A DNA stretch of 64,000 nt from Candidatus Magasanikiibacteriota bacterium. Its GTDB lineage: Bacteria > Patescibacteriota > Patescibacteriia > Magasanikbacterales > 2-02-FULL-50-9b. Both the position numbers and the translations under genes were made by a program. The notes below the pieces were generated by a model. That model had not been told where the DNA came from. It made no database searches and saw only the letters and a program-made list of their open reading frames with translations. The DNA lies in assembly GCA_943355025.1 (NCBI GenBank), contig CALRDW010000003.1, positions 7,680-71,679 of the forward strand, given 5' to 3'. Each line of letters begins with the position of its first letter. Within the stretch, counting starts at the first letter, position 1. Positions 3,315 to 63,107 of the stretch are shown here, piece after piece.

Positions 3315-4049
3315 TTATTCTTCTACATCAATATCTGTAGATTCGGTTCGCACGGACTGTTCGTCTAAATTTTTTTTGAGCTCAGCCAATTCTTTGGGCG
3401 GAATGTTTTTCCATTGACCAGGTGCTAAGTCGCCAATACGCACGTTCATGATTCGTACGCGATGTAAACGCTTGACTTTGAATCCGCACGCATCCGTCAT
3501 GCGACGAATCTGGCGATTTTTACCCTCGGTCAGAATAATTGAAAAATTTTTTTCATCAAGCCGCGTGAGCGCGCAGGGTTTTGTAATGTAATCGCCGATA
3601 TTTACACCAACGGCCATTTTTCTTAAAAATCGATCTGGATATTCTTCATTTACTTCGACCTCGTATTCTTTTTCGTGGCCGTATTGCGCGCGCAAAATTT
3701 TGTTCACGATGTCGCCATCATTGGTGAGGAAAATAAGTCCCGTCGACGCTTTGTCGAGTCGTCCGATAGGGAATACACGAACAGGATGTTTAACTGCAGC
3801 AACGATATTTCCTGCGATGTTTTGGTCTGCTGTGCACGTTATTCCGTACGGTTTGTTATACATTATATAAACGGGTGATTGTTTGGTCATGACTTTTTTG
3901 CCATCGAGCGTCACGATATCGTCGTCCGTCACCTGGTCGCCGAGCACCGCCTTTACGCCATTAATTCTAATGCGGCCGGCTTCGATAAGTCGGTCTGCTT
4001 CACGCCTCGAACAAAGGCCGCGATCAGTGAAATATTTATTGATGCGCAT
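3315..4049 (-). CDS. rRNA pseudouridine synthase, RsuA/RluB family (S4 domain + catalytic GRLD motif)
   Basis: MRINKYFTDRGLCSRREADRLIEAGRIRING (S4) and FPIGRLDKASTGLIFLTNDGD motifs. Confidence 0.8.
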   Translation of the reverse strand: MRINKYFTDRGLCSRREADRLIEAGRIRINGVKAVLGDQVTDDDIVTLDGKKVMTKQSPVYIMYNKPYGITCTADQNIAGNIVAAVKHPVRVFPIGRLDKASTGLIFLTNDGDIVNKILRAQYGHEKEYEVEVNEEYPDRFLRKMAVGVNIGDYITKPCALTRLDEKNFSIILTEGKNRQIRRMTDACGFKVKRLHRVRIMNVRIGDLAPGQWKNIPPKELAELKKNLDEQSVRTESTDIDVEE

Positions 4050-4124
4050 AATTGGGAGTAGTGTGCCTGATTTTTTTCAAATTGTCCACACATTGACAAA
4101 CGCTAAAATTTATAGAACCCAGTT

Positions 4125-4644: not shown

Positions 4645-5622
4645 TTGAGAATCGTTTTATATATGGGCGTGAACGGCGCGGAAAAGATTGAAGTCAGGAT
4701 GGACAAGGAAACGGTGTGGCTCACGCAGGCGCAGATCAGCCAGTTATTTGGGATTGAACGTTCTGTGATTACGAAGCATCTCAAAAATATCTTTTCGACC
4801 GCTGAATTAAGCCAAAATTCAGTATGTGCAAAAATTGCACATACTGCGGCAGATGGAAAAACTTACCAAGTGGAGGTTTATAATTTGGACGTAATTATCT
4901 CTGTCGGTTACCGCGTGAATTCAAAACATGCCACTCAATTTCGTATTTGGGCCACCAGCGTTTTGCAGAACCACATCATGAAAGGGTTCACTATCAATGA
5001 GGCGCGGTTGAAGGAAACCACGTCGCGTGCGCACGAGCTTGGGCGTGCGGTGCGACTGATACGGGCGGCCGCAGATGTACGCATGTTGCGTAGCAGCGAG
5101 GCACGTGGGCTGCTTACGGTCATCACGGAATATGCGCATTCGTGGTCACTCTTGCAGCAATACGACGAAGAAAAGATACTAGTGCAACGCACGCGCACCA
5201 CGAAATTTACGACCATTGCGTATGATGAGGCATGCACAGCAATTGCGGATTTGAAACGCCATGTGTTGCATAAAAAAGAAGCGGGTTCGTTGTTTGGTTT
5301 GGAACGTGAACAGGGATTGAACCGCGTACTCGATGCCATCGCGCAAACATTTGGCGGAAAAATTTTATATCCGTCACTGGAAGAACGCGCCGCGCATTTG
5401 TTGTACTTCATCATCAAGGATCATCCGTTTTCCGACGGCAATAAACGTATCGGTGCATTTATGTTTGTACGGTTTTTGGAAATTAATGCGTTTGGACGTA
5501 ACAAAAGAGGTGAGCGCAAAATCAATCCAAACACCTTGGTGGCGTTGGCATTGTTAATTGCACAAAGTGCGCCGCGTGATAAAGAAATTATGATTGCGTT
5601 GGTGACTAATTTATTGCAGTAA
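4645..5622 (+). CDS. RhuM-family protein with C-terminal Fic/Doc domain (start likely at internal Met near 4663)
   Basis: N-terminal ETVWLTQAQISQLFGIERSVITKHLKNIF (RhuM-like) and C-terminal HPFSDGNKRIG (Fic/Doc motif HxFx(D/E)GNKR). Confidence 0.65.
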   Translation: MRIVLYMGVNGAEKIEVRMDKETVWLTQAQISQLFGIERSVITKHLKNIFSTAELSQNSVCAKIAHTAADGKTYQVEVYNLDVIISVGYRVNSKHATQFRIWATSVLQNHIMKGFTINEARLKETTSRAHELGRAVRLIRAAADVRMLRSSEARGLLTVITEYAHSWSLLQQYDEEKILVQRTRTTKFTTIAYDEACTAIADLKRHVLHKKEAGSLFGLEREQGLNRVLDAIAQTFGGKILYPSLEERAAHLLYFIIKDHPFSDGNKRIGAFMFVRFLEINAFGRNKRGERKINPNTLVALALLIAQSAPRDKEIMIALVTNLLQ

Positions 5623-5655
5623 ATAAATACACCACCAAAAGGTGGCGTATTTGAG

Positions 5656-5727
5656 TGACCCCGGAAGGAATCGAACCTTCATGGGTAGCTTAGAAGGCTA
5701 CTGTACTATCCGTTGTACTACAGGGTC
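5656..5727 (-). tRNA. tRNA-Arg (anticodon TCT)
   Basis: manual fold: acceptor GACCCTG/CGGGGTC, D stem GTAC/GTAC, anticodon stem GTAGC/GCTAC with loop CTTCTAA, T arm GAAGG-TTCGATT-CCTTC. Confidence 0.8.
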
Positions 5728-9961: not shown

Positions 9962-9989
9962 GGCGTCCCTTTCGGGGGGCGCTTTTTTG
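9962..9989 (+). terminator. rho-independent terminator of the RRM gene
   Basis: GGCGTCCC-TTTC-GGGGGGCGC hairpin followed by TTTTTTG. Confidence 0.6.
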
Positions 9990-9998
9990 TTTCAACCC

Positions 9999-10079
9999 AT
10001 ACCCAAAGAAAATAATTCTACTTCTCAGGGAGAGATAAACAGGAACTCCCGTCGAAGTAGAATTATTTTCTTTGGGTAT
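9999..10079 (+). repeat. structured module copy A: 26-bp perfect inverted-repeat arms (9999-10024 and 10054-10079) around core TCAGGGAGAGATAAACAGGAACTCCCGTC
   Basis: left arm ATACCCAAAGAAAATAATTCTACTTC is the exact reverse complement of the right arm; homologous elements at 18037-18209, 62757-62836 and 27879-27959. Confidence 0.8.
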
Positions 10080-10107
10080 ACGTCAACACAAGTGGTATAC
10101 TGCTCAC

Positions 10108-11208
10108 ATGCTTCCGAATCCATTTGAAAAACCGCTGCCGAAATTAGAAGAAACAGATCCTCTTAAGAATGAGGAAATTGTTCGGAGCCTGCTCGGTGAG
10201 AAGGGTGTTGAACGATATCGAAAAATTTTAAATCGCACGAAAGTTTCTTCGGGGCCCGACGCGGTGTCTGTCGAAGAGCTCAAAGCGCTCGCAGCAGAAT
10301 TGAATGCGCAGCGATTGGCGAGTAAAAAAGAAACTACAGAGTGGCAGGTTGAACAAATTATTTCAAAGGATTATGAACGACAAATGGTATCTCTTCGCGC
10401 AATCAAATTTCTTAAAAGAAAAGACGGAATTTTAGGTTTAAAAGCTGTTGACGGAGAATTTTATCCAGCTCCATCAGAAAAAGAGATCGTACGATATTTT
10501 ATTTCAATTCCGAATATTAAAGAAAAGATATATCAAGGATTTACGCGACTACTCATTGTTCCGTTCGGGCGCTCGCTTGCTTTTTTGAACAAAAAAACAT
10601 CGGATTTGATTTTAGAGCACGGGGAGGGTGGCAGGCTTTTGAGTGAATCAGGCGAAAAGCTCTCCTTTGATTTGTCAGGACCGGTATACAATCAGTTCAA
10701 CAATGCTTTGTCCCGATATTATTCAGGGTCATTCGCTGTTCCGGGTACGGGAGGCAAACTTAAAACCGATTTTTTATCGGGACCACAAGATGGCATGCCA
10801 TTTCCAGGCTACAACATTATTTTATTGCAAGAAGATTTACATATTCCGAAGGAAGGCGAAGGCGTGACACGAAATGGAAGAAAACAAATTGAAGCGGGGA
10901 AATCAGCAATTGAGTATTTGGAATTATTACAAACAGATCCGCAGTATGCGGGTGAGCGTGGCCTCGCGCCCGAAGATTGGCTCACGTTATTTGCAACGCA
11001 ACTGTATCAGACAAACACTGTTATACATGAAACATCTGCGGCAATGCCGCCCACAGGAACGGCTGCACTTTTGATTGGCAGCGATTATTCACATAATGGA
11101 GATGTTTCGTTTGCACACTGGACTGACCGATTAGGCATGGCAGCAATTATGTTGATGAAGTCGCATCATTCAGGCGAAGGGGTAGGCCTTATAACCGCTG
11201 TCGGATAA
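10108..11208 (+). CDS. paralog A of an unknown-function protein family (conserved N-terminus MLPNPFEKPLPKLEETDPLKN)
   Basis: ATG lies 6 nt after a TATACT -10 (10096-10101), so leaderless; shares GFTRLLIVPFG, PFPGY..LLQED..IPKEGEG..GRKQ.EAG, EDWLTLFAT and a C-terminal TAVG with the 18235 and 37341 genes. Confidence 0.75.
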   Translation: MLPNPFEKPLPKLEETDPLKNEEIVRSLLGEKGVERYRKILNRTKVSSGPDAVSVEELKALAAELNAQRLASKKETTEWQVEQIISKDYERQMVSLRAIKFLKRKDGILGLKAVDGEFYPAPSEKEIVRYFISIPNIKEKIYQGFTRLLIVPFGRSLAFLNKKTSDLILEHGEGGRLLSESGEKLSFDLSGPVYNQFNNALSRYYSGSFAVPGTGGKLKTDFLSGPQDGMPFPGYNIILLQEDLHIPKEGEGVTRNGRKQIEAGKSAIEYLELLQTDPQYAGERGLAPEDWLTLFATQLYQTNTVIHETSAAMPPTGTAALLIGSDYSHNGDVSFAHWTDRLGMAAIMLMKSHHSGEGVGLITAVG

Positions 11209-13327: not shown

Positions 13328-13819
13328 ATGGAAAAACCCAATCGGCGTCCTAGTAGCCCATCACGAATTTTCGTGGTGCCTCCAATCATCACGCTGGCTG
13401 CACCACCCCCGCCGCCTGCACCCGATCCGCTTGAACGGATAACTGCTCCACGCGGTTGTCGTCCGCATATCCCGGCGCTGCGCGCCTTGATGGCGTACCA
13501 CAACAGCGGTGAAAAGTATGTCACTGCGGAGGATGTGCAGGATTGGCTTGCGCATCAAGATGACAAAATCATCACGTCTGTTGAGGCGCAAACACGGAGC
13601 CTGCTCGGTCTCCGCGCGGCAGGGTTCGTGACTGTGCCGTCAAAAGCAGAGCTTTCGCACGCTCGCATCGCGGCGTCAGATCGGATGTACTTCCGCGCGA
13701 CTCAGACCTTGTTGACGCTTCTCGAACGTACACGCTATGCTCCTGCCCTGACGCATTCGCGCGGCGGCATGTCGTCCACGCGTGCGTTTGCAGTGAATAC
13801 ATCGGCGGCGGCTCGGTAA
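13328..13819 (+). CDS. hypothetical protein (GC-rich, Pro-rich N-terminus)
   Basis: 163 aa ORF in a markedly GC-rich segment; no known domain. Confidence 0.35.
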   Translation: MEKPNRRPSSPSRIFVVPPIITLAAPPPPPAPDPLERITAPRGCRPHIPALRALMAYHNSGEKYVTAEDVQDWLAHQDDKIITSVEAQTRSLLGLRAAGFVTVPSKAELSHARIAASDRMYFRATQTLLTLLERTRYAPALTHSRGGMSSTRAFAVNTSAAAR

Positions 13820-18013: not shown

Positions 18014-18036
18014 CACAAAACAGTTGATTCAACTTA

Positions 18037-18209
18037 CGCTCAAAAAGAATAAATGATACTTCTCAGGGAGAGATAAACAATACATCTTTCTCCGTCACAT
18101 CAGCATTTCAAAAATCTTCCGCTCAGGCTAAAATAAAAAATAGATGTCTCTCCGGGGGAGATAAACAGGAACTCCCGTCGAAGTAATAGTTTTTACTTTT
18201 GGGTATACG
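18037..18209 (+). repeat. structured module copy B (degenerate outer arms; core partially duplicated)
   Basis: TCAGGGAGAGATAAACA occurs at 18063 and again as GGGGGAGATAAACAGGAACTCCCGTC at 18153-18179; right arm GAAGTAATAGTTTTTACTTTTGGGTATACG. Confidence 0.7.
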
Positions 18210-18234
18210 TTCATTCAGGTGTTATACTACTCCC

Positions 18235-19437
18235 ATGCTTCCTAATCCTTTTCAAAAACAACTACCAGAGTTTAAAGACACAGACCCTCTTAAGAACAGA
18301 GAGATTGTTAGAGAACTCCTCGGACCAGAGGGAGTACATAAATATAGAAAGATTCTCGGAGATAATTCGGATTCTAATTTAAAGCGTCAGAAAGAAGTTT
18401 CTAAAGAAGATCTCCTTGCCATGGCAGCAGAAGCTCGCTCTAAAATAGATACTCTGTCCAGAGACTCAGTAAAGCCACTCATCGAGAGACTCGTGGAGCG
18501 CCAATACAACTCTCAGATCCAATCTCTGCAAGAGATTGGATTCCTAGAACCTCTCGTACCACAAAAAAAGAAAAGCTTTACCTTTTTCAAATCAAAAGAA
18601 CCAGAAGAAACTACACCAGAGAAACTAGGAGCTACAGACATCCTCGGTACCTTCCGAGAAGTCCCCTCAGAGGAAGCCATCAAAAATCACTTCCTCTCCA
18701 TTCCTAACATCAAACAAAAGATAGATCAAGGATTCACACGGCTTCTCATTGTTCCCTTTGGAACATCCCTCGACACCCTCCGTTCTAAAACAGGAGAACT
18801 TATCAAGAAGCATAAGAAAGCAAACAAACTTCTTGCAGAGGATGGAAGCAGTTTAGAACTCGACACTGCAACACCACTCTGGGCATGGGACGGCTATAAC
18901 AACGCAGACAAGTCAGGAGCGCTCGTTTATTATCCAGAGCACTTTGATAAAGAAAATCACAATGGTACAACCAAAACAGAACTTCTCTCAGGAGCTCAAC
19001 CAAGTCAAGCAAACTCTTCCACACCAAACACCAATCCATTCCCCGGCTACCGTATTCTTCTTATTCAGGAAGACACACAGATTCCACGAGAAGGAAAGGG
19101 AACAGCAAAAGCAGGGAGAGACAGTTTAGAAGCAGGTAAGTCTCCAAACGACTACTTAGAACTTCTTAAAACAGATCAGAGCTATTCTAAAGAACTCGGC
19201 CTCACTCCAGAAGACTGGCTTACTCTCTTTGCAACGAATCTCACAGAGAAGAACAAGGTTATCAATGACTGGCAGTCTAATAAAGACAGTATTAATTATC
19301 TAGTTGGTAGTTATTTCCCTGGTTCTGACCGCGTCCCGCGCGCGTACTGGGGCCGTGGCGGTCGGCGGGCGCGCTTGGACAGGGGCGGGCCGGCGGGTGT
19401 GAGCGGGGATTTTGGCGTTGCTGGCGCGGTGGGGTAG
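18235..19437 (+). CDS. paralog B of the same family (MLPNPFQKQLPEFKDTDPLKN...; Gly/Arg-rich GC-rich C-terminus ending AVG)
   Basis: ATG 6 nt after TATACT (18223-18228); shared motifs as paralog A. Confidence 0.75.
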   Translation: MLPNPFQKQLPEFKDTDPLKNREIVRELLGPEGVHKYRKILGDNSDSNLKRQKEVSKEDLLAMAAEARSKIDTLSRDSVKPLIERLVERQYNSQIQSLQEIGFLEPLVPQKKKSFTFFKSKEPEETTPEKLGATDILGTFREVPSEEAIKNHFLSIPNIKQKIDQGFTRLLIVPFGTSLDTLRSKTGELIKKHKKANKLLAEDGSSLELDTATPLWAWDGYNNADKSGALVYYPEHFDKENHNGTTKTELLSGAQPSQANSSTPNTNPFPGYRILLIQEDTQIPREGKGTAKAGRDSLEAGKSPNDYLELLKTDQSYSKELGLTPEDWLTLFATNLTEKNKVINDWQSNKDSINYLVGSYFPGSDRVPRAYWGRGGRRARLDRGGPAGVSGDFGVAGAVG

Positions 19438-19662
19438 AACCCCTTGGCCCCTTACTCCTTTTTTGTCTCCTTACTAAACCGGTGAAAAGTAACGTACCTC
19501 GGAGTACGTGCTCCGGAGAAATCGAGCAACTCACAACGATGCTCCTTGGTGCTTCACACAGTGAAATACCAGCATTGAGTAGTGAGAATAAAAGCAATTA
19601 TAATCCCCCACCGGTCCGTTACGGGCTCTTTTTGCGGTTCGATGATTTTAAAACGTGTTGGC

Positions 19663-26676: not shown

Positions 26677-27648
26677 TTAATTGAGTGTACGTGTAACAAT
26701 TTTTGCGGGGCTGAAAATAAAATTGTCAGGAATTTTTTTAGAAATTTTTACAGCGACAAAGCAACTGATCGCGCCGATCGTTGCTCCCGCAAGAATATCT
26801 ACGCCATAATGTTGAAGCCCGTAGAGCGTTGCAACAACCGTAAGCAAAAAAAATGGTACGAGAATAATTGCAGAGTATTTCCAAATTCGATATCCAAAAA
26901 ATAAAATGAGAGTTGCCCAGGCGATGTGCATGCTGGGAAAATTTGTTACATCGAGAAATGGTGTTGCATCATGCGTTTGGAGAGTTTTGATCGTGCTGAT
27001 AAATTGTGTAACAGCGGGGGAGATATACATGCTCGCTGACTCGGCCGCGAGGGCCGGAGAGAGTGGTGTGTTAGTAATGTTATAAAGAAATCGAGCGGCG
27101 GGTGTGAGACCGGGGAATGAGAGCCAGAGCGGGGTGCTGAGAATTTCTGAAAAAACAAATGCAAGAAGAACGGCGAGTGAAAATTTTTGTCCGCGCACGA
27201 ATGCTGCAATGAAAAGAAGGCCAAGTGCAAGCGCGAGGAAGCTGTAGCAGACGAGCGAAGTGGGACCGATTATCTCGAGAATGTTGTGAAACGGATTTGC
27301 GCTTGTATGAATCCAGAGCGGAAGATTAACGCCGAATATTTTTTTATCCCAACCTAATAATTTTTCAGCGAGCATTGTTGCGCGCGCGGGCGTTGTGCTG
27401 TGTGCAACAGAAGTTAAAATGATTCCTGAGAGCAGCGCAAGACCGATGAAAATTCCAGTGAGTGCAAGTGAGGATCGAATATAAATAAGAATCGCGGCGC
27501 GGGCGTGTTTATTTTTGTGCACGAGATATTGTACGCTCCACACATAAATATTAATCGCGTAAAATAAAATGAGGAAAATAAAAAATAGTAAGAGAAAATA
27601 CGAACCGCCGAAATGGATATAGTAGCTGAGGGATTTTAAAATTTGCAT
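26677..27648 (-). CDS. PAP2-family membrane phosphatase-like protein
   Basis: polytopic membrane protein with PSMH and LQHYGVDILAG motifs (PAP2 motifs 2/3-like). Confidence 0.5.
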   Translation of the reverse strand: MQILKSLSYYIHFGGSYFLLLFFIFLILFYAINIYVWSVQYLVHKNKHARAAILIYIRSSLALTGIFIGLALLSGIILTSVAHSTTPARATMLAEKLLGWDKKIFGVNLPLWIHTSANPFHNILEIIGPTSLVCYSFLALALGLLFIAAFVRGQKFSLAVLLAFVFSEILSTPLWLSFPGLTPAARFLYNITNTPLSPALAAESASMYISPAVTQFISTIKTLQTHDATPFLDVTNFPSMHIAWATLILFFGYRIWKYSAIILVPFFLLTVVATLYGLQHYGVDILAGATIGAISCFVAVKISKKIPDNFIFSPAKIVTRTLN

Positions 27649-27745: not shown

Positions 27746-27850
27746 TCACATCTGAGACATCATCAAAAAGCCACGGGTAATACGTGCCAATAAGAATGGC
27801 TCTGTGTCTTTAAACTCTGGGAGTTGTTTTTCAAAAGGGTTAGGAAGCAT
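27746..27850 (-). pseudogene. N-terminal fragment (34 codons) of the MLPNPF paralog family, copy D
   Basis: MLPNPFEKQLPEFKDTEP then divergent FLLARITRGFLMMSQM*; preceded by TATACT 6 nt upstream and module copy D. Confidence 0.6.
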
Positions 27851-27878
27851 GGAAGCAGTATAGCACTTGAATGAACGC

Positions 27879-27959
27879 ATACTCAAAGAAAATGCAGATG
27901 CCTCGACGGGGGCTCGTGTATATCTCCCCCTGAGAGGCATCTGCATTTTCTTTGAGTAT
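27879..27959 (-). repeat. structured module copy D: 26-bp perfect IR arms (27879-27904 / 27934-27959) around core (minus-strand reading TCAGGGGGAGATATACACGAGCCCCCGTC)
   Basis: arm ATACTCAAAGAAAATGCAGATGCCTC and its exact reverse complement; conserved upstream box (minus-strand) CAGTGATTCAACATATACTCAAAG. Confidence 0.8.
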
Positions 27960-28051
27960 ATGTTGAATCACTGTATTGAACTACTTATAAGCTTTTGAGC
28001 TCTGTTGAAAATAAATTAAAAACACCCACATTTTGATGGGTATTTTTAATT

Positions 28052-28132
28052 TGCCGCGGGCGGGAGTCGAACCCACAAGCCTTACGGCGGGGGATTTTAA
28101 GTCCCCTGTGTATACCATTCCACCACCGCGGC
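28052..28132 (-). tRNA. tRNA-Leu (anticodon TAA)
   Basis: GCCGCGG acceptor, anticodon stem GGGGA/TCCCC loop CTTAAAA, long variable arm GCCGTAAGGCTT, T arm GTGGG-TTCGACT-CCCGC; TTGACC-17-TACACT promoter on the minus strand just upstream. Confidence 0.8.
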
Positions 28133-28252
28133 ACAAGCCTATCGCAGTGTATAAAAAAACTCGGTTGCGGTCAATGTTATAAAAAATCCGCCGAGCACAC
28201 AAAGTGTTGGGCGGATGGATCGACTCTCGTTGAATAAGGCAGATCTGAGTCT

Positions 28253-37298: not shown

Positions 37299-37340
37299 AT
37301 GTGATATACTAGTCTAAACTAGACTTTTATAGAGAAACAT

Positions 37341-38369
37341 ATGCCTGTTGATCCTTTTGAAATGTACCCACTTGAGCCACAGCCCGAAGAGCACAAAAAA
37401 GAATCTTTAAAATTTCAACCAAAGGATGAATTTTATTTTGATCATGCAGCCGCACTTAAGCATTCCGCAGAATGGAGTTTGAATGAATTACCGAAACAAT
37501 ATAAAAAGAATACTGAAATTTTGGATGAGCTTGGATTACTCGAGAATTCTAAGGGAGAGCGAGCAATTAAAAGCGTTGATGGTAAGACGTATTCATATCC
37601 TACCGTAGAAAACATACAGAAGTATTTTGAGAGCATGCCAAACATTGAGATGAAGCATGCTCAGGGTTTTAACCGATTGCTGATTGTTCCGTTCGGGTTG
37701 CCAATTGAAAAAATAGGAGAAGCAGTTAGTAAAAATTTAATACATGGAATACGTTCTGGCAGGTACCTTACTGCAAATGGAGAATCTTTCCGTGGTGACG
37801 CAGACGAGGACATGATTATGATTGCCCGCTCCATTTTGGGAGAACGAGGCTGGGGAGATCTTAAATATTATCCAGACTCGTTTGATCAAAAAAAAGATTC
37901 AGGTAAAACAAAATTGGAAATTTTGGGTGGAGGTTCTTCGGTTCAACCATTTCCAGGGTTTCATGTGCTTTTGTTGCCTGAAACAATTGAAATGCCAAAA
38001 GAGGGAGAGGGCAAAACAGTGGCGGGTCGAAAGCAATTTGAATGCGGAATGAGTGCTGAAGATGTTTTAGAATCTTTAAAGACAGACCCTGCATTCAAGC
38101 TTGAATGTGGTTTAACTATTGAAGATTGGCTTTTGTTTTTAGCGGCAGAGACTCGTAGTACAGGACGCTTACCTGGGTGTGCTAATGACACAGATTTTTT
38201 TGATGTAAGCGATCTGCCGCCATCAGCAATATTGTTGGGTAATTTAATTGGAAAAACTGACATAACGGTGTGGGCTGGGTGGTACCCTAGACACCAAACG
38301 TACGGGGTCGGGCATCTTGATGCTGATGATGGTCATGACAAGCTTTGCGCAATGACGGCTGTTAAATAA
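37341..38369 (+). CDS. paralog E of the unknown-function family (divergent N-terminus MPVDPFEMYPLEP)
   Basis: shares GFNRLLIVPFG, QPFPGFHVLLLPETIEMPKEGEGKTVAGRKQFECG, EDWLLFLAAE and C-terminal TAVK with paralogs A and B; no upstream hairpin module, but TGTGATATACT and palindrome AGTCTAAACTAGACT at 37301-37325. Confidence 0.7.
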   Translation: MPVDPFEMYPLEPQPEEHKKESLKFQPKDEFYFDHAAALKHSAEWSLNELPKQYKKNTEILDELGLLENSKGERAIKSVDGKTYSYPTVENIQKYFESMPNIEMKHAQGFNRLLIVPFGLPIEKIGEAVSKNLIHGIRSGRYLTANGESFRGDADEDMIMIARSILGERGWGDLKYYPDSFDQKKDSGKTKLEILGGGSSVQPFPGFHVLLLPETIEMPKEGEGKTVAGRKQFECGMSAEDVLESLKTDPAFKLECGLTIEDWLLFLAAETRSTGRLPGCANDTDFFDVSDLPPSAILLGNLIGKTDITVWAGWYPRHQTYGVGHLDADDGHDKLCAMTAVK

Positions 38370-42417: not shown

Positions 42418-43265
42418 GCATTCACTCTCAATTAAAGAATTACCATGTACGCTTAGCCGAAAGGCTCGTACCTCTGGGCCGTTAGTAGCGGCCTTTTTGC
42501 TTCTTAAATGGGGCACGAAGTTTGGCAGAACAATGAGTGGAGAGTATCTGAACTTTAACAACTGAAGATTACGAAGGTAAAGGCAAATAATAGAACCATT
42601 GCAATTAAGCAAATAATAAAAACGTAAGTAAGTAGTGTAAAAACACAATGTACGTGAAGCTTTCCAAGCGCATAAACACCGTCTTGGTGCTTCAATGTAA
42701 GAGCGTACAATAAGGGTGTGTGGTGGATGCCTTGCTAAATATAGCTGAAGAAGGACGCTGTAGCGAGCGAAAACTACGAGAAGGTCGCAAACAACCTCTG
42801 ATCCGTAGGTCTCCGAATGGGGAAACCCACTTCGATGAGAGTCGAAGTATCCTGCAGTGAATACATAGCTGCTGGAAAGTTACCCGGGGAAGTGAAACAT
42901 CTCAGTACCCGGAGGAATATAAATCAAATGAGATTCCCAGAGTAGTGGCGAGCGAAATGGGAACAGACCAAACGTACAATCCACGAACGGAATGAAAGGT
43001 CGTCTTCGGACGTATCATGAATTCCGGGAAAGGTGTAGGCCGATGTGTTGTACGGGTTGTGGGATGATACTTGAGAGGACCTACAAACTCTCGGTCAGAA
43101 CTGTGTTATAGGAAAATAGGCTGGAAAGCCTAACCAAAGAGGGTGATAGTCCCGTATTCGAAATGACATTAGTTCGGCTTGTATCGTTCCCGAGTAGGGC
43201 AGGACACGTGAAATCCTGTCTGAAGCTGGGACGACTATGTTCCAAGTCTAAATACTATATTTAAG

Positions 43266-43302
<37 letters not shown>

Positions 43303-43887
43303 CAGCCCGAAAGGGCGATGAAATAGTTTCTGAAACCACGCACTTACAAGGAGTCGGAGCCCAAGCGCGCGTAAGCGAAATGCCGGGTGACGGCGTGCCT
43401 ATTGAAGAATGAGCCAACGAGTCAGTTGACCGTCGCAGGTTAAGGTCCTATGGACCGGAGCCACAGTGAAAGCAAGGATTAATAGTCCGTTTGTGGCGGC
43501 GACTGTACCCGAAACGGGGTGAGCGACCCATGACCAGGTTGAATGTTTTGGAAACAAAACAGGAGGACCGAACCAACCAGCTGTGCAAAACTGGTGGATG
43601 AGTTGTGGGTAGCGGAGAAATTCCAATCGAACCCCGTGATAGCTGGTTCTCCTCGAAACATCTTTAGGGATGGCCTCGTATGTTCCCACCGGAGGTAGAG
43701 CACTGAATGAAAACAGGGGCGCAAGTCTACTTTTTTCAACCAAACTCCGAATGCCGGTGATTAAAAATACGGGAGTCAGACAGTGGGGGCTAAGCTTCAT
43801 TGTCTAAAGGGAAACAGCCCAGACCATCAACTAAGGTCCCAAAATCAATGCTCAGTGTGAAAAGTGGTGATGTAGCTTTGACAACCA

Positions 43888-43919
<32 letters not shown>

Positions 43920-44708
43920 GAAAGCGTAACAGCTCACTGGTCGAGCCGCATCGCGCTGAAAATATACCGGGGCTTAAGCATTGTACCGAAGTTATGGATT
44001 GTATTCGGATCCGTCTGAATACAGTGGTAGAGGAGCGTTCCGTCCAGCAGTGAAGTCGGACCCGCGAGGGCCGGTGGAGCGGACGGAAGTGAGAATGTTG
44101 GCATAAGTAGCAGAAACGGGTGTGAGAATCACCCGCACCGTAAAACCAAGGTTTCCTGGGCAACGCGAATCGTCCCAGGGTAAGTCGATCCTAAGCTCAG
44201 GCCGAAAGGCGTAGGCGATGGAAGAGCAGGTTAATATTCCTGCACTATGATAGTGGAGTTCTATATGTGCGCATTTTTGAGATGTGAGCGGTATTTGGTT
44301 ATGGCCGTTGCGCAAGCACGAGATGAAGTCTTCGGATGGAATCAAGTTGGGTTGAAGAAGTGCCAAGAAAAGCATATAGCGCGTTGAAGCTGTCGTATCC
44401 GTACCGGAAACCGACACAGGTGGTTGGGCATGAATATGCCAAGGTGTACGAGAGAACCCTCGTTTAGGAACTAGGCAAAAAAGTAGGCGTAACTTCGGGA
44501 TAAGCCTTCCCTCTCGCAAGAGAGGGCGCAGCGAAAGACATCAGGCGACTGTTTATCTAAAACACAGCTCCATGCGAAACCGTAAGGTGATGTATATGGG
44601 GTGATGCCTGGCCAGTGTCCGAATGTTAAGGGGAGAGGTTAGCCGCAAGGCGAAGCTTTGATCCGAAGCACGGATGAACGCCGGCCGTAACTATAACGGT
44701 CCTAAGGT

Positions 44709-45419
44709 GAATAAAAGCTGCCTTAGTAAAATTCGACTAAATGCTGGAACAACTGGAGTATCTTGTGCTCCTAAGGTATAATGTAACCATAGATTATGCC
44801 AAGGAATAATGTACAAGCGTTTCCGAGTAAGGATCGGAAGCCAGTCAATCAGCAGGAAAGACTAGAAATGAGTGGTTGGATAGTAGGATTCACCGATGGT
44901 GAAGGCTGCTTTTCGGTAAGTCTCATAAGAAATACAACAGCCAAAATTGGTTGGCAAGTATTTCCTGAGTTCGTAATCACGCAGGGAGCAAAGAGTCGTG
45001 TAGCACTCGAAGAAATTCAAATTTTTTTCGAATGTGGACGAATCTATGAAAACCGGCGTTACGATAATCACCGAGAGCATCTATTGCGTTATTGTGTGAG
45101 ATCAATTCAAGAGCTTCGAGAACGGATAATTCCTTTTTTTCAGCAACATGAATTGAAAACACACAAAAAGAATGACTTCAAAAAGTTTTGTGAAATAATT
45201 TCTCTTATTGAGAAAAGACATCATTTGACGTATGAAGGAGTTACTAAAATAGCGCAACACATATCAGAAATGAATCGAAAATCAAAACCAAAGTTTCTAG
45301 AATCCTCAGAGACTACACGTCGAACTCTGGACACAGAGATGATATAGTCCGACCTGCATAGCGATATGCAGAAAGTGGTAGAAATACTACTTCGTCCAGA
45401 AATGGATAGTAACATATTG
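44709..45419 (+). mobile_element. group I intron in 23S at the E. coli about 1917 site (between AAGGT and AGCGAAATTCC)
   Basis: exon ends in U, intron ends in G (45419); S-element-like AGATGATATAGTCC near the 3' end; contains the homing endonuclease ORF. Confidence 0.75.
44796..45347 (+). CDS. LAGLIDADG homing endonuclease (intron-encoded)
   Basis: LAGLIDADG motif WIVGFTDGEGCF; 183 aa inside the 23S rRNA. Confidence 0.85.
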   Translation: MPRNNVQAFPSKDRKPVNQQERLEMSGWIVGFTDGEGCFSVSLIRNTTAKIGWQVFPEFVITQGAKSRVALEEIQIFFECGRIYENRRYDNHREHLLRYCVRSIQELRERIIPFFQQHELKTHKKNDFKKFCEIISLIEKRHHLTYEGVTKIAQHISEMNRKSKPKFLESSETTRRTLDTEMI

Positions 45420-45819
45420 AGCGAAATTCCTTGTCAGGTGAGTTCTGACCCGCACGAATGGCATAACGATCTGATGACTGTCTCAACGAGGGACTCGGCG
45501 AAATTGCAAGAGGGGTGAAGATGCCCTTTACCCGTGGTTAGACGAAAAGACCCCATGAAGCTTTACTATAACTTGTCATTGGACATACGTTTCGTATGTT
45601 CAGCGTAGGCGGGAGCCGCAAGGCACCAATGAGACACCGCCCTTACGCTATGTGTGTTCTTGATCCCTGTCCGTGAATCCGGATGGAGAGACAGTGACTG
45701 GTGGGTAGTTTGCCTGGGGCGGGAGCCTCCCAAAAAGTAACGGAGGCGTCTACAAAGGTCAGCTTAGCGCGGATGGAAATCGCGCTGGACGTGTAAACGC
45801 ACAAGCTGGCTTTACTGCA

Positions 45820-45850
<31 letters not shown>

Positions 45851-45968
45851 AGGTTAGTGATCCGACGATCCAACATAGGATGGTCGAAGCTCAACGGATA
45901 AAAGCTACTCTGGGGATAACAGGCTGATCGGGTCCAAGAGTCCATATCGACGACCCGGTTTGGCACCT

Positions 45969-46309
45969 TAACATATCGGGGTGCAAATAGAGTGATTTAT
46001 TTCCAAGTCTTTTCGTCAAAACTAAAATGTTAGATAGTGAGAAACAATAAATTCGGCTTATAACGGAGAACCCGTCAGTGATACGCCCGTATCACCCGGC
46101 AACCCCGTGGGAAGTCGCCTATGAAAGTAGGTTGACCCCGTAACGACTGACCCGAAAGGGGAGAATCTGCGCGCTGTGCGCGGATTAACACGCCGACTCT
46201 TAATACGTCAAACTGAGATTATGCACGTAAACACAGTTAGTGTTTGCAGCTACGATCCAGATTAAGATGAAGATATAGTCTACCCCACAAGAAACTGTGG
46301 AATTATGTA
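45969..46309 (+). mobile_element. second, ORF-less insertion in 23S (probable group I intron at the E. coli about 2500 site, GGCACCU|CGAUGUCGGCUC); boundaries +/- a few nt
   Basis: flanking exon sequence is contiguous in E. coli; contains S-element-like AAGATGAAGATATAGTC (46265-46280); removing both insertions gives about 2.96 kb mature 23S. Confidence 0.55.
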
Positions 46310-46325
46310 CGATGTCGGCTCATCG

Positions 46326-46356
<31 letters not shown>

Positions 46357-46369
46357 TGGCTGTTCGCCA

Positions 46370-46421
<52 letters not shown>

Positions 46422-46814
46422 CTATCTACCACGGGCGTTGAATATTGAGAGGGCTGGTCTTTAGTACGAGAGGACCGAGATCAACGAACCTCTAGTGTAC
46501 CGGTTGTCCCACCAGGGGCAAACGCCGGGTAGCTACGTTCGGCACGGATAAACGCTGAAAGCATCTAAGCGTGAAGCCGTCCTCAAGATTAATATTCGTT
46601 ATAGCTCCCTGGGAGACTACCAGGTTGATAGGCCGGAAGTAGAAGCGTAGTGATACGTGTAGCTGACCGGTACTAATAGAGCGAGTACGACCTTACATTG
46701 AAGCACTCAAACGTTATTGATGTGCTTAAAAATTCGGTAATGGCGACATATTCGTCCATTACCTTCGTAATCAAATCAGTTGAAACGGTTGGAGCAGGGC
46801 TCCCCCGCAGTAAA

Positions 46815-46931
46815 TTGGTGGCTTCAAGTGCAGTGGAAACACCCGTTCCCATTCCGAACACGGTAGTTAAGCACTGCTACGCCGATGATAGTTGGACCTA
46901 ACCCGGTCCCGCGAAAGTAGGCCGCCGCCAG
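46815..46931 (+). rRNA. rrf: 5S ribosomal RNA
   Basis: CCCGTTCCCATTCCGAACACGG...TACGCCGATG...AGTAGG..CGCCGCCAG conserved 5S blocks; T-tract immediately after. Confidence 0.85.
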
Positions 46932-47096
46932 TTTTTTGCGGGGGAGTTTTGTATTTAAAAAAAGGAGTCTCTCGGGCTCCTTTTTTAGTATACCGCTATT
47001 TTTTACCGCTCTCTTCCTTCAAGATGATCACCTGTGCACAAAAAGCCTTGCCGCCCTGGTCTTGTTGGCGTACACTACTCTTTCTATTGAACTTGT

Positions 47097-61114: not shown

Positions 61115-61186
61115 TGCCCTCGGAGGGAATCGAACCCCCATATACAGCTTCGAAGGCTGTCGTTCTATCCGTTTAACTACGAGGGC
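61115..61186 (-). tRNA. tRNA-Arg (anticodon TCG)
   Basis: GCCCTCG acceptor, anticodon stem ACAGC/GCTGT loop CTTCGAA, T arm GGGGG-TTCGATT-CCCTC. Confidence 0.8.
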
Positions 61187-61911
61187 AGAATGATAATTTC
61201 TGATTCACGTTTGTCCCAGCCTTTTGCAATCAGTGCGGCGCGCGCCGCCTCTTCCTGGGCTTCTTGCTTGCTGGTGCCTTCACCGCTCGCAATCATTTCC
61301 GCGCCCAAAAACAAACCGATGACGAACTTTTTATTGTGGTCAGGACCACTTTCCTCAAGAACTTTGTAGTTTGGCGTAATGCCGACAACGTCTTGTGCCG
61401 CCTCCTGAAAGCGACTCTTTGGATCTACAAATAATCGATTTTCAACGATGTGTCGTAGACGAGTTATAACAAAACGATGAATAAACGCTTCGGCTGCTGC
61501 AAATCCAGCGTCCAGATATATGGCGCCGATGATTGCCTCGATCGCGTTCGCCAGAATATACATGCGAGCCTTGCTGCCCGCGTCCTTTTGTTCGCCTTTA
61601 CTCAGAAACAAGAACGGCTCGAAAGCGATTTCATTTGAAATCTCAGCGAGAATTTTTGCGTTTACCAGGGCGGCACGCAAATTCGTGAGTTTGCCCTCGT
61701 CAATATCAAAACTTTTGTATAAAAATTCTGTGACTGAGAGCTCTAAAACTGCATCGCCCAAAAATTCGAGTCGCTCATTGTGACCGACTTCAAAATCAGG
61801 GTGTTCGTTGAGATATGAACGGTGGACAACGGATTGCAGAAGCAAATCACGGTTTTTGAAAACATGTCCCAGGCGTTCTTCAAGTTGCGGCAGCGCTTTT
61901 ATATCGTTCAT
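61177..61911 (-). CDS. rnc: ribonuclease III
   Basis: RNase III signature ERLEFLGDAVLEL; C-terminal dsRBD. Confidence 0.9.
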   Translation of the reverse strand: MNDIKALPQLEERLGHVFKNRDLLLQSVVHRSYLNEHPDFEVGHNERLEFLGDAVLELSVTEFLYKSFDIDEGKLTNLRAALVNAKILAEISNEIAFEPFLFLSKGEQKDAGSKARMYILANAIEAIIGAIYLDAGFAAAEAFIHRFVITRLRHIVENRLFVDPKSRFQEAAQDVVGITPNYKVLEESGPDHNKKFVIGLFLGAEMIASGEGTSKQEAQEEAARAALIAKGWDKRESEIIILPS

Positions 61912-62570: not shown

Positions 62571-62756
62571 AGTAAATTCGTGACTATACAGGGATTATAA
62601 CAGTGTTTTTGAGGGCTGGCAAGGGGAGTCGGCCGCTCATAGTTTTAGTGTTATATCAGAAGTCGGAGGCGTTGGCAAGAGGTGTGTACTATTCATTTTT
62701 TGGTTTCAACAGGGCTCGGAAGTTTATAAGTAATACAATACGGTGATTCAACATGC

Positions 62757-62836
62757 ACTCAAAAGTAAAAACTATTACTTCTCAGGGGGAGATGAACGAG
62801 GGGCCCCCGTCGAAGTAATAGTTTTTACTTTTGAGT
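62757..62836 (+). repeat. structured module copy C: 25-bp perfect IR arms (62757-62781 / 62812-62836) around core TCAGGGGGAGATGAACGAGGGGCCCCCGTC
   Basis: left arm ACTCAAAAGTAAAAACTATTACTTC equals the reverse complement of the right arm; upstream box CGGTGATTCAACATGCACTCAAAAG. Confidence 0.8.
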
Positions 62837-62866
62837 ATAGGTTCACTCAGGTGTTATACTGCTTCC

Positions 62867-62938
62867 ATGCTTCCTAATCCTTTTCAAAAAACTCTTATAA
62901 GGGAGCTTGTTCATGTCTCAAACACGACTTGGAACTGA
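62867..62938 (+). pseudogene. N-terminal fragment (23 codons) of the MLPNPF paralog family, copy C
   Basis: MLPNPFQKTLIRELVHVSNTTWN*; ATG 6 nt after TATACT (62855-62860); contains AAGGGAG SD for the next ORF. Confidence 0.55.
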
Positions 62939-63107
62939 CAAAGAACACTCGAAATCTTTACGCATTGAGATTATGGCAAAGCGCGGCATGATTAAAGAAA
63001 TGTCACCGCGAGACAAAGTCGGCCGCCGCGCATTGGAAGATAACATCGAAGAACTTGAACGTGAATTGGCAGAACTGTGTCCAGATCCCGCTCCACTATC
63101 AGACTGA
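62913..63107 (+). CDS. small hypothetical protein (64 aa, helical, charged)
   Basis: ATG 62913 preceded by AAGGGAG 7 nt upstream; lies downstream of module copy C. Confidence 0.45.
   Translation: MSQTRLGTDKEHSKSLRIEIMAKRGMIKEMSPRDKVGRRALEDNIEELERELAELCPDPAPLSD

What the first reader, a model, noticed from the sequence alone, without database searches (positions are those of the whole stretch)
9987..10110. Four-copy composite module: conserved box, long perfect hairpin, extended -10 and leaderless ATG of a conserved N-terminus
The same architecture recurs at 9987-10110 (A, +), 18021-18237 (B, +), 62741-62869 (C, +) and 27848-27983 (D, -). It begins with an upstream box GATTCAAC-N-CTCAAAG. Next comes a hairpin whose outer arms are a 25-26-bp perfect inverted repeat in A, C and D, closing on CTTC/GAAG, around a conserved core TCAGGG(A/G)GAGAT...CCCGTC. 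The extended -10 TGnTATACT follows, and exactly 6 nt later an ATG opens MLPNPF(E/Q)K.LPEFKDT(D/E)P. That spacing predicts a leaderless transcript starting at the ATG, which would leave the hairpin outside the mRNA. Such an element could be an insulating terminator, a recombination site, or a separately transcribed structured RNA. I do not recognise it as any described riboswitch, REP/MITE family, attC site or CRISPR repeat.
Basis: seen in the sequence. Interest (0 to 1): 0.85.

Follow-up and report, generated by a model that had tools for sequence, protein, structure and literature searches.

The report
Hairpin-promoter cassette of hypervariable-protein genes
The four repeats are real: each is a long covarying hairpin next to a strong promoter in front of genes for retroelement-diversified (DGR) binding proteins of a tiny "CPR" bacterium, and the hairpin matches no described RNA or DNA element, though its job is still a guess.

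Summary
A covariance model finds exactly four module loci in the window. A, C and D are intact, with 25-26 bp perfect stems. B is a degenerate tandem of two modules. Each is a ~105-bp near-palindrome ending 1-2 nt before TGnTATACT, with the ATG 6 nt after it.

New context:
- The downstream genes are DGR variable proteins with a C-type-lectin fold. Gene B's C-terminus differs from a template repeat in a sister contig almost only at template adenines (p=1e-10).
- Distant homologues sit next to DGR reverse transcriptases.
- C and D are orphans. They keep the promoter and 8-18 codons and now face other genes.

The hairpin is a pared-down form of a ~135-nt three-way-junction element found at the same position in relatives. 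Both forms covary strongly, and Rfam has no match. It is not universal in the family: it is absent, miniaturised or degenerate in some members.

Best guess (confidence 0.3): a folded-RNA transcript-boundary element, acting as a two-way terminator and/or RNase III site. It would insulate a leaderless promoter and spread by recombination among paralogues. Rivals are an independent small RNA, a functionless self-correcting palindrome, and an attC-like recombination site. Transcript mapping is needed.

The parts
9987..10091 (+). Module A palindrome. Perfect 26-bp arms at 9999-10024 and 10054-10079. Apical mini-hairpin at 10025-10053: UCA / GGGAG-13 nt-CUCCC / GUC.
10093..10110 (+). Module A extended -10 TGGTATACT (10093-10101), 6-nt spacer, ATG (10108-10110).
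10108..11208 (+). Family gene A (366 aa). Same family as B, 44% identical. No Pfam hit. Its C-terminus is unlike the template repeat found for B.
18025..18218 (+). Module B, two tandem modules with decayed inner arms. The first core is at about 18061-18093. The second module spans 18115-18218. The left outer arm resembles the L019:1020 allele, and the right outer arm equals the C allele.
   Evidence: (I8)
18220..18237 (+). Module B extended -10 TGTTATACT, 6 nt, ATG.
18235..19437 (+). [not shown]
19321..19400 (+). Variable repeat (VR) of gene B. Compared with the template repeat at L019:11359-11438, 18 of 22 template-A sites differ against 4 of 58 non-A sites.
62699..62743 (+). Upstream extension of module C (TTTCAACA..TTTATAAGTA..CAATACGGTGA). 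It is shared with D, L019b, L024, L025 and L108, and absent from A and B.
   Evidence: (I3)
62744..62849 (+). Module C palindrome. Perfect 25-bp arms at 62757-62781 and 62812-62836. The core has GGGGG/CCCCC.
62852..62938 (+). Module C promoter TGTTATACT (62852-62860) and an orphan ORF from the ATG at 62867 (MLPNPFQK, then unrelated sequence, 23 codons). A 64-codon ORF follows at 62913-63107.
27868..27970 (-). Module D palindrome. Perfect 26-bp arms at 27879-27904 and 27934-27959.
27971..28015 (-). Upstream extension of module D. It lies directly after the terminator of tRNA-Leu (28051-28133).
27746..27865 (-). Module D promoter TGCTATACT (27865-27857) and an orphan ORF from the ATG at 27850 (18 family codons, then unrelated sequence). 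The co-oriented PAP2 phosphatase gene at 26677-27648 follows.
37302..38369 (+). Third, more distant paralogue (342 aa). It has its own TGATATACT promoter 30 nt before the ATG and no hairpin module.
   Evidence: (D4)

Best explanation
The four copies are the 5' control cassette of a multi-copy family of DGR (diversity-generating retroelement) variable proteins in a CPR/Patescibacteria bacterium.

A cassette consists of three parts:
- a ~105-bp near-palindrome;
- an extended -10 promoter whose -35 (TTGAGT/TTGGGT) and A/T-rich upstream region lie in the palindrome's right arm;
- an ATG at the predicted +1, giving a leaderless mRNA.

The palindrome is a reduced form of a ~135-nt three-way-junction element that occupies the same position in relatives. 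Its stems covary, so it acts as a folded single strand.

My proposal, which is inferred and not shown, is that it folds in RNA whenever transcription enters from outside the cassette. Two sources are possible: read-through from upstream, or the divergent transcript expected from the symmetric -10. There it would work as a transcript-boundary element. The A-rich 5' arm and U-rich 3' arm give a two-way terminator-like hairpin. The 22-bp-or-longer perfect duplex is a natural RNase III substrate. The variable-protein gene would then be expressed only from its own promoter, as an mRNA with a 5'-terminal AUG.

Cassettes are copied and homogenised by recombination among paralogues. C and D are cassettes whose variable-protein gene was lost, and they now face other genes.

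Shown: the anatomy, the covariation, the family identity, the DGR signature, the orphan state, and the promoter consensus.
Inferred: that the hairpin is transcribed, on which strand, and that it terminates or is cleaved.
For: - Exactly four loci are present, with very stable folds.
- Small form: 98.3% of cells are paired. 16 of 37 pairs have double changes, against 8.1 in shuffles (0 of 500 as high) and 1-2 when partners are slid.
- Large form (L026:2186-2321, L002:4826-4962, L001:3303-3441): 19 of 44 pairs are compensatory, with 0 of 500 shuffles as high. A 120-nt branched interior cannot plausibly extrude from duplex DNA, which favours a single-stranded (RNA) role.
- The 3' arm is U-rich (AUUUUCUUUG, UUUUUACUUUUG) and the 5' arm is A-rich in every copy, including the distant L001 and L002.
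- An RNase III gene is present in the window at 61177-61911.
- TGnTATACT is the genome's strong promoter type and several sit 6-9 nt before an ATG. The scanner calls the promoter at D.
- The module is always attached to the promoter plus family N-terminus and is never found alone.
- Orphans face co-oriented genes: D faces PAP2, and L023:3980-4108 faces an epimerase operon.
- Arm and core alleles are reshuffled among loci, and one gene has two different upstream neighbours with the breakpoint at the module edge.
Against: - Canonical GC-stem/T-run terminators already sit directly upstream of A (9966-9990) and D (28024-28050), so an upstream terminator role is redundant there.
- C, L019b and L108 lie in divergent intergenic regions.
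- The stems are AU-rich and the 'loop' is 29-120 nt, which is unlike intrinsic terminators. The scanner does not call them.
- A conserved apical motif and a conserved three-way junction are not needed for termination or RNase III cleavage.
- The hairpin is degenerate in B, a 10-bp stub in L112, and absent in L110, L129, L004, L008, L012, L017 and in five complete DGR loci. It is therefore dispensable.
- Other strong or leaderless promoters in the window have no such hairpin.
- Strand is undecided. G.U versus A.C cells are 14 to 7 in favour of the gene strand, p=0.19.
Confidence: 0.3

Rival explanations
1. The hairpin is an independently functional structured RNA on the gene strand. It could be a small RNA or a distal-promoter leader whose P1 stem closes a ligand- or protein-binding fold. 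It would regulate the variable-protein family, for example deciding which paralogue is expressed. The small form is a reduced or inactive derivative.
For: - The large form has five helices with compensatory changes between lineages whose proteins are only 36% identical. It also has conserved unpaired stretches: ACG, the CAGC loop, UCUCUC and UCCGAGA.
- G.U pairs are more frequent on the gene strand, 14 to 7.
- A 47-nt conserved extension with TTTTCA-16-TATAAG lies upstream in C, D, L019b, L024, L025 and L108.
- Candidate -10 boxes (TAAAAT, TACAAT) lie 12-20 nt before P1 in L002 and L001.
Against: - TATAAG/TATAAA lacks the key final T and the TG extension typical of this genome's promoters.
- A, B, L019a and L023b lack the extension, and A has no room for a promoter after the upstream terminator.
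- Only three large-form sequences are known. The model R1 found no more in about 0.9 Mb of related DNA.
- The interior is freely lost.
- There is no Rfam match.
Confidence: 0.25
2. The hairpin is a functionless palindromic relic. An ancestral structured element decayed, and the long arms stay perfectly complementary through intrastrand template switching (quasipalindrome correction) and gene conversion among copies, not through selection. The right arm was merely co-opted as the UP/-35 part of the promoter.
For: - The interior shows every stage of loss: 120 nt, 29 nt, 11 nt, none.
- B is decayed although its gene is intact and is a live DGR target.
- The same arm allele is present at 5 or more loci, and arms and cores are reshuffled, which shows frequent conversion.
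- The rare mismatches are single transitions, as in L024 and L023.
- The -35 lies in the right arm.
Against: - Short helices of 5-8 bp in the large form also covary across distant lineages. Template switching is a weak explanation for those.
- 25-26 bp perfect arms occur in three independent alleles within one window.
- The outer arm sequence CAAA(G/T)AAAATAAT is conserved between this lineage and L002.
Confidence: 0.2
3. The hairpin is a folded single-stranded-DNA recombination site, like integron attC or other hairpin sites of tyrosine or HUH recombinases. It would let promoter-plus-gene cassettes be exchanged between loci.
For: - Conserved outer boxes, a variable perfectly paired stem and a terminal structure of very variable size match the attC design. 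The left box ATTCAAC fits RYYYAAC in B, C and D.
- Rearrangement breakpoints lie at the module edge (L024 versus L025).
- Orphans and a tandem copy exist.
Against: - The right box GTTCAYT / GTCAACA does not fit GTTRRRY.
- There are no extrahelical bases, because the stems are perfect.
- The window has no integrase, other recombinase or HUH gene among the 40 ORFs scanned against Pfam.
- Copies are scattered among housekeeping genes, not arranged in an array.
- The interior of the large form is conserved, unlike an attC terminal structure.
- Rearrangements are equally explained by homologous recombination between ~200-bp repeats.
Confidence: 0.1
4. The hairpin is a duplex-DNA operator or cruciform. 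A regulator would bind the repeated TTCAAC / CTCAAAG boxes, or supercoiling-driven cruciform extrusion would hide the -35, switching the promoter.
For: - TTCAAC-like boxes recur three times on the left and once on the right.
- The -35 and promoter spacer lie inside the palindrome's right arm.
- The arms are AT-rich.
- TrmB-type regulators are encoded in the window and in L024.
Against: - Protein operators conserve sequence, not just complementarity, and the inner 7-12 bp of the stem vary freely.
- Cruciform extrusion with 13-120 nt of unpaired or branched centre is kinetically implausible.
- A lacks most of the boxes.
Confidence: 0.1

Closest known systems
Palindromic intergenic repeats that carry promoter parts and are RNase III substrates when transcribed (Neisseria Correia elements; ERIC/IRU, BOX/RUP). 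This comparison is from my own knowledge.
   Same: It is a roughly 100-150-bp near-palindrome in several copies per genome. It sits next to gene starts, its end contributes a -35, and its long duplex is suited to RNase III.
   Different: - Those elements have arms (TIRs) conserved between copies and insert at many unrelated sites with target duplications.
- Here the inner arms differ between copies but stay paired.
- No target duplication is seen.
- The element is never found apart from one gene family's promoter and N-terminus.
Integron attC sites
   Same: Structure rather than sequence is conserved. There are outer boxes, a paired variable stem, and a terminal structure ranging from a small loop to a branched fold. 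The left box fits RYYYAAC.
   Different: The right box does not fit GTTRRRY. There are no extrahelical bases, no integrase and no cassette array. The element lies upstream of a promoter-bearing gene, and the large interior is conserved.
Bidirectional intrinsic terminators and RNase III processing hairpins at transcript boundaries (for example the phage T7 early region and the rnc leader). This comparison is from my own knowledge.
   Same: A hairpin flanked by an A-tract and a U-tract that reads alike on both strands, with a long perfect duplex, placed between transcription units.
   Different: The stem is AU-rich, the apical part is 29-120 nt with conserved sequence, and canonical terminators already precede A and D.
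DGR target-site hairpin/cruciform next to IMH, and retron or DGR non-coding RNAs
   Same: It is associated with DGR variable-protein genes, and a closing stem encloses a structured core.
   Different: - The known DGR hairpin is a short GC-rich stem just 3' of the VR. This element lies more than 1.1 kb away, at the 5' end.
- It is absent from five complete DGR loci.
- It is degenerate in front of B, the one window gene with a clear DGR signature.
- No reverse transcriptase is adjacent.

Membership tests
Any Rfam 15 family (riboswitches, ribozymes, sRNAs, 6S, SRP, Y RNA and others) | Match to the family covariance model at or near the gathering score | tested here: not met
   The gathering-threshold scan of the window finds only rRNA and tRNA. 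An E<=10 scan of module A finds only generic miRNA-hairpin hits far below threshold. E<=1 scans of the large form in L026 and L002 give zero hits.
Intrinsic (Rho-independent) terminator | GC-rich stem of 5-14 bp with a 3-8 nt loop | tested here: not met
   The stems are 25-26 bp and AU-rich, and the interior is 29-120 nt. The scanner does not call them, but it does call the canonical terminators just upstream of A and D.
Intrinsic (Rho-independent) terminator | U-tract directly 3' of the stem (A-tract 5' if bidirectional) | tested here: inconclusive
   The 3' arm ends in AUUUUCUUUG or UUUUUACUUUUG and the 5' arm is the A-rich mirror. These tracts are themselves paired in the full hairpin.
Integron attC | R'' = RYYYAAC and R' = GTTRRRY boxes | tested here: not met
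   R'' is ATTCAAC in B, C and D (fits) but TTTCAAC in A. R' is GTTCATT, GTTCACT or GTCAACA, none of which fits.
Integron attC | Integrase and/or a cassette array; extrahelical bases in the folded strand | tested here: not met
   No recombinase was found among the window ORFs scanned. Copies are scattered among housekeeping genes. The stems are perfect.
MITE / Correia-like mobile palindrome | Terminal inverted repeats conserved among copies, target-site duplication, and insertion at unrelated sites | tested here: not met
   The outer boxes are conserved, but no flanking duplication is seen. Every copy in the window and in about 150 kb of sister contigs is attached to the family promoter and N-terminus.
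Riboswitch / 5'-UTR leader | Lies between the transcription start and the start codon of the regulated gene | tested here: inconclusive
   The best promoter (TGnTATACT, 6 nt before the ATG) lies downstream of the hairpin. A weaker upstream promoter cannot be excluded. No TSS data are available.
Leaderless mRNA promoter | A -10 element placed so that the TSS coincides with the A of the ATG, with no Shine-Dalgarno sequence | tested here: met
   The 6-nt spacing is exact in all four copies and in 8 related copies. One related copy has GTG as its start codon. This is a sequence-level test only; the TSS is not testable with these tools.
DGR variable protein (the downstream genes) | C-terminal C-type-lectin fold carrying the variable repeat | tested here: met
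   [not shown]
DGR variable protein (the downstream genes) | VR/TR pair differing at template adenines | tested here: met
   Gene B VR against the TR at L019:11359: 18 of 22 A sites against 4 of 58 non-A sites, p=1.2e-10. In the homologue loci L006, L038, L066, L074 and L079, 13/13, 16/16, 17/18 and 20/21 mismatches fall at TR adenines. No matching TR was found for gene A or the third paralogue.
DGR variable protein (the downstream genes) | DGR reverse transcriptase in the same element or genome | tested here: inconclusive
   RVT_1 reverse transcriptases with the IGNLTSQ motif lie directly downstream of distant homologues. None is present in the window or in the sister contigs held.
DGR target-site hairpin (IMH-proximal) | Short GC-rich hairpin immediately 3' of the VR | tested here: not met
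   The module is at the 5' end of the gene, more than 1.1 kb from the VR. A separate small hairpin (CTCGGAG..CTCCGGAG, 19495-19517) lies 3' of B's VR.

The most novel reading that the evidence does not exclude
The element, in its full ~135-nt three-way-junction form, is a new class of structured RNA (or folded ssDNA) dedicated to multi-copy DGR variable-protein genes in CPR bacteria. It could be a cis mark that controls which paralogue is expressed. Alternatively it could couple remote target genes to a trans-acting DGR. The 29-nt-core hairpins in this window would be its minimal working form.
Probability: 0.12. Interest if true: 0.85.

Novelty: new variant of a known kind. Interest (0 to 1): 0.6.

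Why it matters
DGRs are the most extreme natural protein diversifiers, and CPR bacteria are rich in them. How large families of remote target genes are expressed and kept in order is unknown.

This lineage carries at least a dozen paralogues. Most have one portable cassette made of a structured hairpin, a leaderless promoter and a conserved N-terminal domain.

If the hairpin is functional, it is an undescribed structured element tied to DGR targets, and an unusual case of a covarying structure placed upstream of a promoter. If it is not functional, it is a clean natural example of palindrome arms co-evolving by self-templated correction.

The two covariance models built here make either outcome testable across CPR genomes and metatranscriptomes.

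Tried and rejected
- Known RNA families: Rfam at gathering and at permissive thresholds found nothing.
- A reverse transcriptase, template repeat, integrase or other recombinase in the window: none.
- The idea that the variable arms or B's insert pair with another site in the window, as a guide or antisense: no match of 11-12 nt or more elsewhere.
- More large-form copies: model R1 found only its three training sequences in 100 + 23 sources.
- Viral-contig scans: the small-core DNA pattern and the protein-relative scan found nothing, and the 15 loose large-core pattern hits were not confirmed by model R1.
- An analogous hairpin upstream of variable-protein genes in other CPR lineages, including five complete DGRs: none.
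- Hairpins upstream of other strong promoters in the window: none comparable.
- Strand assignment from G.U versus A.C counts: 14 to 7, not significant.
- A promoter on the minus strand reading into the hairpin: by eye only the weak symmetric -10 (TAGTAT/CAGTAT), with no -35.
- Four look-ups of close homologues returned no contig.
- The afdb50 fold library was unavailable.
Full report
**Observation**

The four sequences are as described.

- A, C and D each hold a perfect inverted repeat of 26, 25 and 26 bp around a 29-30-nt interior.
- The symmetry continues outward to 45-46 nt per arm at 83-84% complementarity.
- The folds are far more stable than shuffles, with z = -8 to -12, and equally so on both strands.
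- B does not fold better than shuffles (z = -0.97). By inspection it is two tandem modules whose inner arms have decayed. Its left outer arm matches the allele at L019:1020, and its right outer arm equals the C allele.
- A covariance model of the hairpin (R2), run without filters on both strands of the window, finds A, C and D at 106-112 bits, B's second half at 47.7 bits, and nothing else above noise.
- TGnTATACT, 6 nt and then ATG is exact in all four copies.

**What the genes are**

Genes A (10108-11208) and B (18235-19437) and a third paralogue (37341-38369) have no Pfam, NCBIfam, PADLOC or PDB-sequence match.

Homologues occur only in CPR/Patescibacteria (Magasanikbacteria, Azambacteria, Berkelbacteria, Saccharibacteria and others), often several per contig.

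Close homologues of B differ mostly in a C-terminal frame..VP.A.W.R....A.L....P.......GVAGAVG.

A sister contig from the same sample as an identical copy of part of this window (L022) carries an AAC-rich repeat at L019:11359-11438, about 240 nt downstream of a paralogue.
- Against it, B's 19321-19400 differs at 18 of 22 template adenines but at only 4 of 58 other positions (Fisher p = 1.2e-10).
- Three other paralogues show the same bias.

In five distant loci the family gene is followed by a template repeat and an RVT_1 reverse transcriptase with the DGR motif IGNLTSQ. There the VR/TR mismatches fall at template adenines in 13/13, 16/16, 17/18 and 20/21 cases.

The family is therefore a DGR variable-protein family, and B is a remote target. 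The window itself holds no RT, template repeat or recombinase.

**The module elsewhere**

Sister contigs carry the same cassette in front of other paralogues: L019 (two copies), L023 (two copies), L024, L025 and L108.

- The same arm allele (ctcaaaagtaaaaactattacttc) sits at five or more different loci. Arms and cores occur in different combinations, which indicates gene conversion.
- One identical gene (P0015) has two different upstream neighbours in two samples, with the breakpoint at the module's left edge.
- C, D and L023:3980-4108 are orphans. The promoter, the ATG and 8-18 family codons are followed by unrelated sequence and then a co-oriented gene: a PAP2 phosphatase after D, and an epimerase/glycosyltransferase operon in L023.

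**The hairpin is a reduced form of a larger element**

Upstream of paralogue P0020 (L026:2186-2321), inside the same outer boxes, the long stem encloses a ~105-nt branched core. The same core, again inside a long A-rich/T-rich stem and followed by TGTTATAAT and an ATG, precedes homologues that are only ~36% identical in a Magasanikiibacteriota MAG (L002:4826-4962, L001:3303-3441).

- Across these three sequences 19 of 44 pairs have compensatory changes (0 of 500 shuffles as high; 2-4 when partners are slid).
- The small form keeps the closing stem, the internal loop and the first inner helix (GGGRG/CYCCC, which also covaries), and replaces the rest by a 13-nt loop.

Further reduction is seen in other family members:
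- a 10-bp stub in L112;
- no hairpin at all in L110, L129, L004, L008, L012 and L017;
- no hairpin in front of variable-protein genes of five complete DGRs.

No Rfam family matches either form.

**Promoter**

TGnTATACT is the recurrent strong promoter type in the window. Several such promoters sit 6-9 nt before an ATG, at 8914(-), 30283 and 1096(-). A leaderless reading is therefore reasonable for this organism. The scanner independently calls TTGAGT-18-TATACT with TG at D. The -35 and the promoter spacer lie inside the palindrome's right arm. Other strong promoters in the window have no comparable hairpin.

**Mechanism**

The covariation, and above all the 120-nt branched interior of the large form, argue for a role as a folded single strand rather than duplex DNA.

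The arms are A-rich on the 5' side and U-rich on the 3' side in every copy, including the distant ones. The duplex is long enough for RNase III, which the window encodes at 61177-61911.

I therefore favour a transcript-boundary role. Transcripts entering from upstream, or divergent ones from the symmetric -10, would be terminated or cut. The gene would then be read only from its own promoter as a 5'-AUG mRNA.

This is inference, and there is evidence against it:
- A and D are already preceded by canonical terminators.
- The conserved apex is unexplained.
- The hairpin is dispensable in some members.
- The strand test is inconclusive (14 G.U against 7 A.C cells, p = 0.19).

Rival explanations are given with their own tests:
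- a separate or leader RNA with its own function;
- a functionless palindrome kept perfect by template switching and conversion;
- an attC-like ssDNA site (the right box, the extrahelical bases, the integrase and the array all fail);
- a duplex operator or cruciform.

**Comparison and novelty**

The element works most like palindromic intergenic repeats that donate promoter parts and form RNase III or terminator hairpins. It is not a member of those families: its arms are not conserved between copies, there is no target duplication, and it never occurs apart from one gene family. It is also not the known DGR target-site hairpin, which lies 3' of the VR.

I rate it a new variant of a known kind. 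The gene family itself is a new member of a known kind, DGR variable proteins.

**Verdict**

The repeat is real and non-trivial, with strong structural covariation and a newly recognised DGR context. Its function is unproven.

Noticed in passing
window 19321-19437 and L019:11359-11438: The C-terminal coding part of gene B is a DGR variable repeat. Its template repeat lies in a sister contig downstream of another paralogue, so B is a remote DGR target. 18 of 22 adenine sites changed against 4 of 58 others.
   Followed up: yes
window 19460-19640: The 3' flank of gene B is homologous to the flank that leads into the template repeat in L019. It has a small hairpin (about 19495-19517), then a promoter TTGAGT-18-TATAAT (19575-19604). 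Here that promoter is followed directly by a terminator (19613-19632). It looks like a template-repeat unit whose repeat was deleted.
   Followed up: partly
window 42700-46695: The 23S rRNA match spans 3996 nt for a 2925-nt model, so about 1.07 kb is inserted. An ORF inside it (44796-45347) is a LAGLIDADG endonuclease, which suggests an rRNA intron or insertion as often seen in CPR. No 16S gene lies next to it; 5S follows at 46814-46933.
   Followed up: partly
L024:9760-10010 vs L025:3240-3490: The identical variable-protein gene (P0015), with the same downstream genes, has different upstream neighbours in two samples: an HD-domain gene in one and xseB in the other. The sequences diverge exactly at the left edge of the module.
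   Followed up: partly
L023:1-4110: There are two tandem paralogues, at 91-1215 and 1226-2365. The second has no module of its own. An orphan module at 3980-4108 then drives an epimerase/glycosyltransferase operon.
   Followed up: partly
L019:1128: One otherwise intact cassette has GTG instead of ATG at the predicted +1.
   Followed up: no
L046:8077-8233, L062:8656-8817, L063:8320-8502, L050:7042-7146, L057:1472-1556; L060:593-784 and L097:4073-4260: Other CPR metagenome contigs hold unrelated elements of the same general design: a 14-25 bp perfect closing stem around a 53-155-nt structured interior. The one in L063 lies between a TGCTACACT promoter and the ATG of a GAPDH-like gene. L060 and L097 share the same 22-25 bp arms, as a MITE would.
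   Followed up: no
window 13500-13538 vs 19473-19511: A 39-nt stretch inside an unannotated 163-aa ORF is 72% identical to the sequence just 3' of gene B's stop codon. This may be chance.
   Followed up: no
window 4645-5622: An ORF with RhuM and Fic/DOC domains lies next to tRNA-Arg (5655-5727). It may be a small mobile or toxin island.
   Followed up: no
window 8914(-), 30283(+), 1096(-), 2044(+): Several unrelated genes have TGnTAYAMT 6-20 nt before their ATG, so leaderless or very short-leader mRNAs seem common in this organism.
   Followed up: partly
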